From: Eledone cirrhosa
Lineage: Eukaryota
Length of the DNA stretch: 64,000 nucleotides
Direction: 5' to 3'
NCBI GenBank assembly: GCA_964016885.1
Contig: CAXHJY010000007.1
Span: forward strand, 32,507-96,506
Shown: piece by piece, positions 48,570-59,785 of the stretch
Position numbering within the stretch: the first letter of the stretch is position 1
Layout of the letters: every line of letters begins with the position of its first letter
Translations under genes and position numbers: made by a program
The notes under the pieces: generated by a model
What the model was told of the DNA's origin: nothing
The model's input: only the letters and a program-made list of their open reading frames with translations
Databases searched by the model: none

Positions 48570-49100
48570 TAACACTTGGGGAGGGTCATATTGTTGTAAT
48601 AATATTGCCAGAAATAATAACAGAACACACTCACTGTTTGGTTGGTTTTTGCTTTTGTATCTTTTATATCTCCATAGTTAATTTATTTGGCAATCAATGT
48701 TTATCATTGATTGACCAGCGGTTAAAAATACAGATATAAATATATATAGTCTGTCAAAGTTCTTTCATTGCACATTGTGTTATATTGTATTCTACCATAC
48801 AATAGGAGGGAACATAATAGTACCACTGATGATGTTGCAGATGTGCAACGGAAGAACTTTGATAGACTATATATATTTATATTTATATCTGTATTATTAA
48901 CTGCTGGTTAATCAATGATAAACATTGATTGCCAAATAAATTAACTATGGAGATATAAAAGATACAGAAGCGAAAACCAACCAAGCAGTGAGTGTGTTCT
49001 GTTATTATTTCTGGCAATATTATTACAACAATATGACCCTCCCCAAGTATAACAATATTTGTTTCAACACATAATTTCATATCAAAACCTTGCAAAACAA
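48570..49100. mobile_element. Inverted pair of solo Penelope pLTR fragments (diverged subfamily)
   Basis: 48570-48790 (minus) and 48800-49100 (plus) are both homologous to 54350-54665. Confidence 0.8.
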
Positions 49101-49119
49101 ATATATATATATATATATA

Positions 49120-50992
49120 TATTGTTATACTTGGGGAGGGTCATATTTGTGTAATATTGCCAGAATTAATAACAGAACACACTCACTGTTTGGTTGGTTT
49201 TCGCTTCTCGCTTCTGTGTCTTTTATATCGGTAATCTAACTTACTCGGTCCTCAATGTTGCCATTGACTGACCGACGGTCAAAAATAATACAGATACAAT
49301 ATAGACACAAACACATATATATAGTTTATCATAAATCTTTCGTTGCACATCTGCAACATCATCAGTGGTGCTATATTTTCCTCCTGTTGTATTGTATGTC
49401 TACGCCATTTTTATTCAGTCTGTCTATATATTTATTTATTTATTTGCTTGTTTGTTTATTTTATTTTGTCTTCTTTGCGCATGCGTTTGCGTGTGTATAT
49501 AGTGTTTTGTTTGCTGTGTGATGGGTGACTAGTGTGTGTTTATGTGCTTGTTGTTATTGTGCTTGTGTATGTATTTATTTATTTATTTATTTTATTTTAT
49601 TTACTTATTTATACTTCTCTTAGGTCAGTGTTGTTTGTTTGGGTGTTGTTGTTATTCCATTCATTCTTTCTGTTTAGCCTTGGTCTTCTAATTTCTATTT
49701 CACTGGCCTCTCTGATTTTCCTATCTGCTGGGTCATTTCTATGTTTAGATATTATTCTAATTTCTATGTTGTCTATGTTACCGTCATGTTGTTGTCTAGC
49801 ATGTTCGTATAGTACTGACCCGTTTTTTCGTCCTTTTAGTTCCCCCCAGTGTTGGTCTATCCTTTCACCTATGCTACAAGCTGTCTCACCTATGTATGTT
49901 GTTGTCATGTTTCTGCAAGTACCCTCTGTACATCTTATGCTATAGACTGCGTTTCTAGTTTTACAGTTTATCCGGGGGTTCACCTTACATATGATACATT
50001 TCCTATTGGTACAGTGGGTTTTCTTAAAAGGGTAGGTTTTGCTGATCAGGGATTTTATGGTGGTTCCTGGCTTTTCTACCACCTTTATTTTTAAGTGGGT
50101 CTTTCTCAGGGCCTTTCTACACTGGTTAGCTAATTTCTCCCCAGGGGTGGCGTCCACAAACATGACACTCTGGTATCTCTGGTTGTCGTACCATGAGGTG
50201 GCTTTCCCTATCTTATGTCTAGCCCTATCTAAGCTATTCCATGATTTGCTCCTGTATAATGGGCAAATTCCTTTCATGTCCAGTTCTATGAGGGTCTTAT
50301 ACTTTTCCATGGCTCCTTCGTATACTCTAACTCTGTCTCTTTGGTTGTAGCCAGAGAACTGCATGCGGTTGATGAAGTGTTGGATGTGTCTTTCCATTTC
50401 TGTTGGGTCGCACATGTGGGACACATTCTTCATCACTCGTACCAAATCTGCGATCAGAATATTAAACTTAGCACTACTGGACATTGCTGAGTTTTTTAGT
50501 ATCAGGTATTTGGAGGCCATGGGTTTAGCATAGTGTGAGTGGAGAATTTGGGCTCTCTCGTCTATAGTGTTAATCCAGAGTTCTGTGTCTAATACAGGTA
50601 GTCTATTGTTAGGGTGTTTGGAAGGGAAGTCAATAGTTACAGTTATACTCTGGTGTATGGAATTAGCTATCTGCTGGATGCTTTCCATCGTGCTACGTTC
50701 TAAATCAAACTTGTTAGTGCTCTCTACTGGGGGTGTTCTTATAACTATATTGATATCGTCTACATAACGAGAGTACATGATGAGGTCTATGGAGCTCTCA
50801 TTAAGGAGATCTTTAAGTCTCCTTTCCCACCATACCATGAAAAGGTTGGCAACATGACCAGCTATGCCGACGCCGATGGCTGCTCCCTCATTTTGGGTGT
50901 AGACCTTCTCGTTGAATTTAAATATGTGGCCCTTTAGGGTAGTTTTGATACTAGCCCCTATTGCATGTGCGACCATTTTTCTTACCTGATCA
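49120..50992 (-). mobile_element. Inverted duplicate of the 3' half of the Penelope-like element (RT C-half, GIY-YIG, pLTR)
   Basis: ORF 49609-50976 is essentially identical to 52780-54147 (one visible H/R difference). Confidence 0.95.
49318..49376 (-). ncRNA. Type I hammerhead ribozyme, inverted-arm copy
   Basis: Minus strand atatagcacca-CTGATGA-t-gttgcagatgtgcaac-GAAA-gatTTA-tgataaactatat. Confidence 0.75.
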
Positions 50993-56920: not shown

Positions 56921-59559
56921 AAGTATGTAAAAAACATAGACGTAAAAGCATACATACACATACACGCACACATACGAATGCATTTGTATACATATACAAA
57001 CATGTATACACACATATGCACACATACACGCATATATGCAATGTAAAAACCAGCTGTATGAATAAATGGGTACAAGATATACGCAAGTAAACATACATGA
57101 AAGCGGCTGACGGACAACAGAATATATCTGGAGTTAAAAACATAAGTGACGTGATATCAGGTAGTGAAAGAAAAGGGGGAAGTAAAGTATGTAAAATTGT
57201 GAAGATATAAAGTAAGTGAATCATAAAGCAGGGGTGGGGGGTCCACTAGTGGATGTGAAGTAAAAATAACAATAAAAATAAATCAGAAAGAGAAGTCTGT
57301 AAAGAAGGTAAGTTAAGGAAAGTGAAGAACAAGAGTTTATGGAGGATAAGTATCTGAAAGTGAGTTAAGTTTATATGAGCTGGAAAGCAAGTGTGATTTC
57401 AACTGGTGAAAATTTCTGTTTTTGCATTTAGGCAGGTTTTTGGTGATTTAAGGTTCTGTAAAATCCAATATTTTTCACTTATGCAGAGTGCGCATCTTCT
57501 TTAGATTGGTTCAAAATTGACCAATCTAATTTATATTGGATACCTTGGTCTTTCAAATCCCATATTCTGCTAGCCAGAGCTGTTGTAAATCTTTTTTCAG
57601 GATATCAGAAAGATGCGACATGTGAGTAATAACGCGTTTTGAATTTGTCTGGTGTCATACCCACATAGCGTTTGCTGGTGGCTGGTAGGTTGTTGCTGGT
57701 GGTTGTCACTTTAGCCTCATATACAATGGCTTTGGTGTTGCATTTACCTTGTAATGGGCATTCACTTTTGACTCTACAGGAGCAATTTTGATGTTCTCTG
57801 GGTATTTTCTTATTGAGGATATAAGATTTAATAGAGGGACCGCAGGAGTAGCTGATTTTGACACAGTTTCTATTGAAGATCTTATAGTATCTATTATGTT
57901 CTAGGGAAATGTTTATCTAAGAGCTCTGAGAATTTTTTGCATACATTAGTTTTAACTGCTGAAGAGTAGGGGCATGTGAACCAGATTATTTTTCTTTTCC
58001 TATTATTATGTTTAAAGGAGTTAGTATTGTTGGGTATGTACTTAATCGGTTCGCTAAATCCGCTATTTTGAAGGGCTTTATTATAGTAGTAGGGGGATGC
58101 CTTATTGAAAATAGCTTCTGAGGAAGAGAGGGTCGAGATCCTACAGCTAATATTAGGGATAAGATTTTTTTTAAATATAGGAGGATGGCAAGAGCCTTTA
58201 TTTATATATTTTAAATTTTCATTTGGTTTATGGTACGGTTTATAAGAAGCAGTAGGCAGATCTAGGTTTATATCTAGAAAATTAACATTGGAAAGGTTAG
58301 TGTCAATGGTAATTTTAAGATTAAAACTAGTGAAGGTTTTTATTAAGTCTTTTCTGAATCTATCTAAGTTATGGCCTATAGTGGTATGGGAAAGTATTAG
58401 ACCATCGTCACGATAAAGCCCAAAGGTATGGTTAGGGAATTTCTCTTTAAGTGTGTGTAGGAGGAATAGGCCGACTAAATCACATACGTCAGCACTGTCA
58501 AAAGAACCCATTGAGACATTGAATGGGTTCACTGGGTTAGATTTTTTTTACCCAAGTGTCATTATTAGTAAACAGTAAAGTGTTTCTAGCATGCAAAATG
58601 ACATTCTCTTCAATATCAGAAATATTGATAAACTTTTTAGCGAAATGTAATGCTTTCGTTAAAAGAGGGTGAGTAATAGACGGGTAGAAGTCTACAATGT
58701 CAAATTGGGTGAATCTAGAACTATATATATATATGTATGTATATATGTATATATATATATATATGGTCGCGTGCGTGCATGCGATTAGATGTACATGTAT
58801 GTATATATATGTGTATCGTGTGTATGTATGCGTGCTTTTGTATGTATGTACGCATGTATGTGTATGTATCCTTTTGTGCTTGTGTTTTTGTCTGTACGTA
58901 TATATATATATATATATATATATATGTGCGTACGAACTTCTGCATGTTTTCTACTTTTTATTTATTTTTTCTAGTGTTACTTTATAATTGATAACCCCTC
59001 CCTCTTACTTTCTCTTTGTCTTAATTTTTATTCTTATCTTATATATTATTTCATTAATTTTTCATATTTTATATTTTTATATCTGTATCGACCTTCAGTC
59101 TGACACTGCCTTGACTGATACACTCCCTTCCCTGTATATATCACATACATGTATGTGGTTGCGCGTGTGTGTATGTTTATATGCGTGCGTCCTTTCATCC
59201 ATGTATGTGTATATATTTCAATTCTTAGTCCCTGAGTCTGTATGTACGCTAACTCTATTATCTTACAATTCCTTTTTCAACATATATTATATACGTATTT
59301 GTGGTCACACATACACTAATATGTTTGCCCTCATGTATGTACTTATGCACACATTTTTTCACTATACACATGCATTTGTACATACACACATATGTACATT
59401 TGTAGGTGCATATACACACATTTATACACATCCCCTTACTATATTTCTTTATTTTATTTTTATATATCTCTTGTATTATTACTTTTATTTATATATATTT
59501 TTTTGCCCATTAAACTTTTGCCTTTCTTGAGGAGATTTTTCAAATATTTCACTGTTTTA

Positions 59560-59637
59560 AATTGCCTTGTCTGACGAACGAATGCGGACGTTTCTTGTAT
59601 TCGTCTTATTTGGGAAACCTCTGGTAATGAGGTAATT
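59560..59637 (+). ncRNA. Type I hammerhead ribozyme, inverted pLTR copy
   Basis: Same fold; CTGACGA 59571, GAAA 59614, GUA 59624-59626. Confidence 0.7.
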
Positions 59638-59785
59638 ATATTGTATTGTTTATTATACATTAAATTTAGCTCTGTAACTTACATAGAGCACTCTTCACTC
59701 CTATGACTTTTTCAATTTTCAACGGAAACTTCAATACTTATATATATATATATATACATATATATATATATATATATATATACAT

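What the first reader, a model, noticed from the sequence alone, without database searches (positions are those of the whole stretch)
48570..59662. Two ribozyme-armed Penelope fold-back cassettes inside the presumed DHRSX intron 2
Seen: two unrelated Penelope-like elements lie within 11 kb. Each forms a long near-identical inverted repeat (49120-50992 vs ~52765-54620, ~1.9 kb; 55595-56450 vs 58765-59662, ~0.9 kb), and every arm carries a hammerhead motif. Hammerheads therefore sit on the host sense strand at 54377 and 59571 (degenerate one at ~48825), each preceded in the transcript by its own antisense copy. Known: PLE pLTRs carry hammerheads and often occur as inverted partial tandems; coleoids have extensive ADAR editing. 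Inference: the pre-mRNA would form kb-long dsRNA that could mask the ribozymes from co-transcriptional self-cleavage and feed ADAR or small-RNA pathways, a self-neutralising insertion architecture. It assumes the gene continues past 64000.
Basis: partly seen in the sequence, partly recalled or inferred. Interest (0 to 1): 0.75.

Follow-up and report, generated by a model that had tools for sequence, protein, structure and literature searches.

The report
Two ordinary Penelope fold-backs in intron
Two broken jumping-gene copies sit in an intron of an octopus-like animal's DHRSX gene, each inserted back-to-back with its own mirror image as these elements commonly are, so their weak self-cutting RNA motifs are predicted to be zipped shut in the host RNA, most likely as a by-product of how they insert rather than as a safety device.

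Summary
Observation confirmed. Two Penelope-like elements (A: Nematis-like linker; B: Hydra clade) form inverted repeats of 1.87 kb (98.9%) and 0.95 kb (92.5%), and all four arms carry real type I hammerheads. They lie in DHRSX intron 2: the scaffold ends at 64000, and exons 3-7 lie on chromosome C1 beyond a gap that this scaffold appears to fill. The layout is the published PLE insertion form. It is common here: 19 of 37 other A loci and 11 of 39 other B loci are fold-backs (biased upward). One arm ends at a short point and the other carries the tail (A 15 of 17, B 8 of 8), which fits priming from both ends of a cut (TA)n. In such a head-to-head unit an antisense arm precedes the sense hammerhead on either strand, so the order says nothing about selection. 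Little needs masking: A is a dimer-type minimal hammerhead; the host-sense B copy folds poorly (4th lowest of 30); the third has a core mutation. dsRNA, editing and cleavage were not observed. siRNA from Penelope inverted repeats is already in print, and the scan reported the same masking on other genomes.

The parts
21828..21942 (+). DHRSX exon 1, coding part (ATG at 21828, phase-1 GT donor)
   Evidence: tblastn of O. bimaculoides P0003 aa 1-40, 82.5%; context
45032..45139 (+). DHRSX exon 2 (AG..GT, 108 nt)
   Evidence: single copy in the assembly; a 2255-nt contig of run X5 lies only on 45028-45139
45140..64000 (+). 5' part of DHRSX intron 2; continues past the scaffold end to exon 3 at G000:C1:354,099,448; at least 32.3 kb
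48574..48775 (-). inverted arm of an older A-subfamily (A2) fold-back; holds only the 3' half of the hammerhead
48796..49100 (+). forward arm of the A2 fold-back; hammerhead C3 at 48826 with core change GAAA to GGAA
49119..50992 (-). cassette A, inverted 5'-truncated arm (short end); hammerhead C3 49365, H17 49332
50993..54679 (+). cassette A, forward 5'-truncated PLE: RT (DKSG 52029, YVDD 52990), CX4CxxC linker 53743, GIY-YIG (YSIRC 53812, YIGET 53860); frameshift near 52670; 3' UTR; tail 54624-54679
54372..54423 (+). host-sense minimal type I hammerhead A: C3 54377, predicted cut after 54410; helix I 2 bp, helix II 6 bp, near-palindromic helix III that cannot close as a monomer
54599..54679 (+). 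start of the A ORF inside the pLTR and tail (same reading as in tandem copy L106)
55210..55594 (.). (TA/TACA)n array, left target flank of cassette B
55587..58722 (-). cassette B, main 5'-truncated Hydra-clade PLE (YRDDG RT, CxCX5C linker at 57784, several breaks); short end; hammerhead C3 55684, H17 55629
56589..56920 (+). tRNA-derived SINE inserted in a (TA)n of element B; inverted partner at 59799-60129 (95.8%)
58722..59738 (+). cassette B, inverted 5'-truncated arm carrying the tail (59669-59738)
59560..59637 (+). host-sense Hydra-type hammerhead B: C3 59571, predicted cut after GUA 59626; helix I 11 bp, helix III 3 bp with a 3-nt loop, long helix II with a C-to-U change at 59611
59799..60129 (-). 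second SINE copy, inverted to the one at 56589

Best explanation
These are two independent, broken Penelope-like retrotransposon insertions in DHRSX intron 2, each a 5'-truncated copy joined head-to-head to an inverted copy, likely made when the element's enzyme primed reverse transcription from both ends of a cut (TA)n run at two fixed start points on its RNA. Shown: the arms, the hammerheads, the (TA)n flanks, the short-plus-tailed end pattern and the frequency of the form in the genome. Supported by orthologue mapping: the intron. Inferred: two-ended priming, from the end pattern and the in vitro PAc data. Predicted: in the pre-mRNA each cassette zips into kb-long dsRNA that covers the host-sense hammerhead and is probably an ADAR substrate like any intronic inverted repeat. 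That masking follows from geometry and is probably of little consequence, since the host-sense ribozymes are dimer-dependent (A), poorly folding (B) or core-mutated (A2).
For: [quoted passage not shown] In this genome 19 of 37 A loci and 11 of 39 B loci are fold-backs, 12 of 37 and 7 of 39 with the hammerhead region on both arms; 8 of 29 A2 and 6 of 29 B2 loci have outward pairs within 3.2 kb. Long-plus-short ends in 15 of 17 A pairs and 8 of 8 B pairs, window included; PAc cuts and extends both strands and starts at two RNA sites that define the tail (PMC11167929). The tail lies on the longer arm in A and on the shorter arm in B. Single min-HHRs show no cleavage (PMC4209133) and the PAc HHR needs the PLE protein. 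Host-sense B has P(hammerhead fold) 1.9e-4 vs a family mode of 0.098, rank 4 from the bottom of 30. Intron 2 holds 15 inverted pairs of 100 nt or more, most of them not PLE. A spliced-looking DHRSX contig exists in run X5.
Against: The modal family-B hammerhead has an 11-bp helix I and folds actively with P of about 0.1 as a monomer, so a fresh B insertion might cut a host RNA, and fast intronic hammerheads do knock genes down (PMC11856399). All three host-sense copies look weakened, which could hint at selection, but n=3 and the B change is at a CpG and is shared by other copies. The fold-back shares come from top-scoring hits, where two-armed loci have two chances to be drawn. No genome-wide intron-orientation test was possible. 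Folding estimates leave out tertiary contacts and proteins. X5 is another sample and may lack the insertions.
Confidence: 0.8

Rival explanations
1. Selective filter: fold-backs arise mechanically but are kept in introns because the antisense arm silences an otherwise harmful sense hammerhead, whereas solo sense copies are purged.
For: Masking is thermodynamically overwhelming; modal B hammerheads are predicted to be fairly competent monomers; intronic hammerheads can cut pre-mRNA levels up to 20-fold (PMC11856399); retrozymes are depleted from Xenopus introns (bioRxiv 10.64898/2026.07.22.740005, passages); the descriptor found no solo sense core inside the held parts of DHRSX.
Against: Fold-backs are about a fifth to a half of sampled copies wherever they lie; the antisense-first order is forced by geometry; A-type min-HHRs are inactive as monomers; the host-sense B copy is predicted to be weak; one gene is not a test.
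Confidence: 0.12
2. The inverted arms are assembly artefacts at the end of a small unplaced scaffold.
For: C34 is a 96.5-kb unplaced scaffold; the inner 1.4 kb of the A arms differ at only 2 sites; the junction 50992/50993 is not among the listed bridged pieces.
Against: Each A arm has private substitutions (one private transition class G-to-A on the minus arm, an A-to-T at 54144 on the plus arm) and they carry different family-shared alleles at 54371 and 54466; B arms differ by 7.5%. The arms show the family's short and long ends, which a read fold-back would not. Raw reads of another sample show strand-switch joints of family A at other places.
Confidence: 0.04
3. Hammerhead B is active in the host RNA and tunes DHRSX output by co-transcriptional cleavage, like the CPEB3 intronic ribozyme.
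For: Intact core, GUA site and long helix I; the CPEB3 precedent (PMC10919898, search listing and start of abstract only).
Against: Young, multi-copy, unconserved insertion; lowest-tier folding among family copies; covered by its antisense arm.
Confidence: 0.04

Closest known systems
Insertion unit of endonuclease-bearing PLEs with an inverted 5'-truncated copy and a one-sided tail (Craig et al. 2021, PMC8557442; passages, section 11 and supplement S1/S2 seen)
   Same: Head-to-head inverted truncated copy, tail on one end only, (TA)n targets, hammerhead in the pLTR
   Different: Tails here are about 56 nt (A) and 70 nt (B) rather than 30-40; no upstream pLTR in these copies
Hydra-clade PLEs (Hydra-1_Obim, Penelope-13_HM; same paper)
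   Same: YRDD RT with DIVDFYPSI and MGSFD motifs, CxCX5C linker, (TA)n target, type I hammerhead with an extra base on each side of helix II and a 3-bp helix III; Penelope-13_HM has a hammerhead on both strands
   Different: Helix I (11 bp) and helix II (about 10 bp with a competing register) are longer than those listed in File S2; the hammerhead sequence differs from Hydra-1_oBim's
Minimal and Drosophila virilis-type PLE hammerheads (Cervera and De la Pena 2014, PMC4209133; parts 1-2 of 4 read)
   Same: Hammerhead A has the extra base between A9 and G10.1, G10.1-C11.1, a 6-bp helix II, a 2-bp helix I and a near-palindromic helix III with a 2-nt centre, like the D. virilis variant
   Different: No bulge in helix II; octopod host
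PAc Poseidon of Anolis (Frangieh et al. 2024, PMC11167929; parts 1-2 of 4 read)
   Same: Two fixed 3' ends; the tail lies within the ORF start
   Different: The A ORF starts about 220 nt after the hammerhead rather than within it; not tested in vitro
Penelope inverted repeats as an siRNA source in Drosophila (PMC3681739; passages read)
   Same: Long inverted repeats made by rearranged insertion
   Different: No small-RNA data here; the transcript would be a host intron

Membership tests
EN+ Penelope-like elements (element A) | single ORF, telomerase-like RT plus C-terminal GIY-YIG with CCHH motif | tested here: met
   DKSG, SLYPS, YVDD, YSIRC..C, YIGET, QH..H motifs; RVT_1 E=3e-4, below the cut-off; Pfam GIY-YIG not hit; frameshift near 52670
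EN+ Penelope-like elements (A and B) | pLTR/tail with two fixed ends and an inverted 5'-truncated copy | tested here: met
   the tail is the ORF start in tandem copy L106
Nematis vs Neptune clade (element A) | CX2-5CxxC linker; short in Nematis, long in Neptune; RT phylogeny | tested here: inconclusive
   CTNRKCIIC with a short spacer to the GIY cysteine resembles the Nematis rows of Fig. S2 by eye; no tree was built
Hydra clade (element B) | CxCX5C linker, no CCHH inside GIY-YIG | tested here: met
   CSCRVKSEC at 57784; AIVY...YVGMT without cysteines
Hydra clade (element B) | RWK and DKT motifs near the N-terminus | not tested
   this copy is 5'-truncated before them
Hydra clade (element B) | (TA)n insertion and a canonical hammerhead | tested here: met
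   flanks; structure against File S2
Type I hammerhead ribozyme | core CUGAnGA / GAA / A15.1-U16.1 / H17 with three helices | tested here: met
   subfamily changes respect the constraints: H17 A or U, 16.2 C or U opposite G in A and A2; U-G to C-G in helix I of B2; Rfam models do not score them
Type I hammerhead ribozyme | self-cleavage | not testable with these tools
   folding estimates only
DHRSX gene | orthology and complete exon chain | tested here: met
   named hits are DHRSX or polyprenol dehydrogenase in most rows; P0003 aa 1-334 maps in order to two exons on C34 and five on C1
ADAR-edited retrocopy | A-to-G excess over T-to-C in the element's sense | tested here: not met
   A: 2.91 vs 3.71 per kb (65 pieces); B 3' part: 3.50 vs 5.19 (52 pieces); B 5' part: 5.66 vs 5.79 (17 pieces)

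The most novel reading that the evidence does not exclude
For PLE families whose hammerhead can cut as a monomer (Hydra-type B), the two-armed insertion is the only form whose ribozyme is preceded by its complement on both strands, so fold-backs escape purifying selection in introns while solo sense copies are removed. Intronic copies would then be enriched for fold-backs, making PLE-rich genomes a large source of intronic dsRNA for ADAR in coleoids.
Probability: 0.12. Interest if true: 0.6.

Novelty: new member of a known kind. Interest (0 to 1): 0.24.

Why it matters
As it stands the locus adds two more examples of a published insertion form and supports two-ended priming in a Hydra-clade and a Nematis-like family. 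It would matter if a genome-wide test showed that fold-backs are kept in introns because they mask their ribozymes. That would give PLE hammerheads a measurable host cost, and would link an insertion mechanism to the supply of ADAR and siRNA substrates in cephalopods. This genome has thousands of candidate copies and makes the test feasible once it is annotated.

Tried and rejected
Rfam: no hammerhead family hit at gathering score or E<=10. First reading of hammerhead B with a 5-bp helix III and a cut at 59634 was rejected, because it leaves a 2-bp helix I; the register with the cut at 59626 gives an 11-bp helix I. Downstream sequence on the same scaffold does not exist (16 of 20 stretches asked for lay beyond its end). 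A second assembled haplotype of the region: none found. Direct overlap between C34's ends and the C1 gap edges: none, so placement in the gap rests on exon order of DHRSX and of the upstream gene. Fossil A-to-G editing in either family: not found. No RNA holder was listed by the look-up of sequencing runs; X5 behaves like RNA but is not on record as such. Read contigs over 49600-52760 neither showed nor excluded the inversion junction; the family is multi-copy and contigs drop rare paths. First fold-back count (15 of 37, 9 of 39) missed abutting arms and was redone. Pfam gave no GIY-YIG hit for either endonuclease. Searches for the masking idea in print: six terms, 0 papers; 3 papers, none on it by title and abstract start; 2 papers, not on it; bioRxiv supplements and closed journals were not seen.
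Full report
Observation. Self-BLAST gives inverted pairs 49119-50992/52764-54623 (1874 columns, 98.9%) and 55587-56492/58722-59668 (952 columns, 92.5%). Cores CUGAnGA...GAAA lie at 54377(+), 49365(-), 59571(+) and 55684(-). A three-helix descriptor, set after I had seen the motifs, finds 4 cores in 48001-60000 against a mean of 0.01 (max 1) in 100 shuffles. 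Rfam scores none of them. The degenerate copy at 48826 belongs to a third, older fold-back (48574-49100) of an A subfamily; A inserted into the (TA)n at its tail.

Host gene. Exon 45032-45139 (AG..GT) hits octopod proteins at 92% and, among named hits, mostly DHRSX. It is single-copy. The window ends with scaffold C34 (96,506 bp). The O. vulgaris protein P0002 maps its later exons to G000:C1:354,099,447-354,110,348 and its upstream-gene part to C1:354,067,048. C1 has a 200-N gap at 354,085,817-354,086,016, and C34 carries a weak match (E=0.2) to the next part of that upstream gene, then DHRSX exons 1 and 2. O. bimaculoides P0003 aa 1-334 maps in order over two exons on C34 and five on C1; splice phases join. 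So C34 most likely fills that gap and intron 2 is at least 32.3 kb; no sequence overlap with the gap edges was found. In run X5, not on record as RNA, a 2255-nt contig lies only on 45028-45139, and several unique intron bins have no cover. That is what a spliced mRNA would give; whether that sample carries the insertions is unknown.

Elements. A: RT (DKSG, YVDD), a CX4CxxC linker and GIY-YIG with CCHH, broken by a frameshift near 52670. The short linker resembles Nematis rows in Fig. S2 of PMC8557442 by eye; no tree was built. In a tandem copy (L106) the tail reads on as the ORF start. B: Hydra clade by the CxCX5C linker, the absence of CCHH and the (TA)n target; an octopus Hydra family is already listed (Hydra-1_Obim).

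Hammerheads. A: extra U after A9, G10.1-C11.1, helix II 6 bp, helix I 2 bp, helix III near-palindromic with no room for a loop; predicted cut after 54410. The A2 subfamily changes H17 and 16.2 within the allowed letters. This is the dimer-dependent kind; single min-HHRs gave no cleavage in vitro (PMC4209133) and the PAc hammerhead needed the PLE protein (PMC11167929). B: helix I 11 bp, helix III 3 bp with a 3-nt loop, GUA site at 59626, with the same layout as Hydra rows of File S2. Nearest-neighbour probability of the hammerhead fold is 1.9e-4 for the host-sense copy, 3.9e-3 for its twin and 0.098 for the modal copy; 30 of 34 copies could be scored and the host-sense copy ranks fourth from the bottom. 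A2 at 48826 has GGAA (2 of 35 rows; 26 GAAA, 2 AAAA, 5 unparsed).

How common is the layout? I fetched 10 kb around 37 A loci and 39 B loci from the 40 top-scored candidates of each search, leaving out the window's own rows and second arms of the same locus. An inverted copy lies at the 5' end in 19 of 37 and 11 of 39, and the hammerhead region is on both arms in 12 of 37 and 7 of 39. For A2 and B2, 8 of 29 and 6 of 29 have outward pairs within 3.2 kb. These shares are biased upward because two-armed loci can be drawn twice. First-look candidates number 745, 2379, 1949 and 1314 (not copy numbers), so such cassettes likely run to hundreds. Another two-strand hammerhead pair lies at C1:354,019,784 and 354,020,395. 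Two cassettes within 11 kb is therefore unremarkable, and both sit in (TA)n runs.

Mechanism. Of 20 A fold-backs (window included) 17 could be paired and 15 have one short end (about 54623) and one tailed end (54666-54680). Of 12 B fold-backs 8 could be paired and all 8 do (the B query reached into the tail, which favours tailed anchors). PAc cuts and extends both DNA strands and starts at two RNA sites that define the tail. Two-ended priming on a cut (TA)n is the simplest reading; it is inferred, and an earlier scan note (e1-8673709) suggested it. With both 3' ends pointing outward, a transcript of either strand meets an antisense arm first and a sense hammerhead last.

Masking and editing. 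Duplexes of hammerhead plus antisense arm are -116 and -162 kcal/mol against -8.5 and -19.8 for local folds, and pairing can start 1.6 kb (A) or 0.85 kb (B) before the hammerhead emerges, so masking is a fair prediction. It is untested in RNA. Intron 2 holds 15 inverted pairs of 100 nt or more, including a SINE pair that crosses cassette B and a 1.1-kb LINE pair at 96.4%, so dsRNA here is not special to PLEs. No A-to-G excess is fixed in family copies. Penelope inverted repeats giving siRNAs is in print (PMC3681739, passages). Abundant ADAR editing in coleoids is recalled, not checked here. I found no paper on masking of PLE hammerheads in introns, but the scan's own notes report it in three other genomes.

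Artefact check. The arms carry private and family-shared differences and the family's two distinct ends. Raw reads of another sample show strand-switch joints of family A at other places, mostly from single start points. The window's own junction was not shown bridged.

Against my reading. The modal B hammerhead may be active as a monomer; engineered intronic hammerheads lower mRNA up to 20-fold (PMC11856399, passages); retrozymes are under-represented in Xenopus introns; and all three host-sense copies look weak. A selective filter is not excluded, but one gene cannot show it.

Verdict. Interest 0.24.

Noticed in passing
G000:C34 (whole scaffold) and G000:C1:354,085,817-354,086,016: The 96.5-kb unplaced scaffold appears to fill a gap in chromosome C1; the assembly splits DHRSX between exons 2 and 3.
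   Followed up: yes
window 16345-16440 (+): Solo Hydra-type hammerhead of subfamily B2, 5.5 kb upstream of DHRSX exon 1, with U4 replaced by C in the commonest copies of that subfamily (CCGACGA); no adjacent antisense arm.
   Followed up: partly
window 1112-1157 (+): Histone 3' stem-loop (Rfam RF00032, 37 bits) with no long ORF listed upstream of it.
   Followed up: no
window 62884-64000 vs G000:C1:354,089,438-354,090,536: Inverted LINE pair (96.4%, 1.1 kb) within the same intron 2, across the gap; a further dsRNA candidate.
   Followed up: partly
window 56589-56920 and 59799-60129: Inverted SINE pair (95.8%) whose pairing would cross that of cassette B.
   Followed up: partly
window 54371: A/G site in distal helix I of hammerhead A (A-C mismatch vs G-C pair); both states occur in more than one family lineage and differ between arms in the window, L112 and L129. 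Recombination, or editing fixed by reverse transcription, is possible.
   Followed up: partly
window 51248-51746: Asn/His-rich low-complexity stretch of about 165 codons inside the A ORF, kept in frame.
   Followed up: no
G000:C1:354,063,508 (+); 354,019,784 (-) and 354,020,395 (+): Further hammerheads: a distant relative of type A with other helix I and II sequences, and a two-strand pair of another family.
   Followed up: no
run X5 over window 49600-52760: Contigs cover the A ORF with family alleles and do not share the window's frameshift, suggesting expression of other copies.
   Followed up: no
proteins P0002, P0003, P0004: Public octopod gene models fuse DHRSX to neighbouring genes (an upstream gene in P0002, a 1,300-aa downstream exon in P0003 and P0004).
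   Followed up: partly
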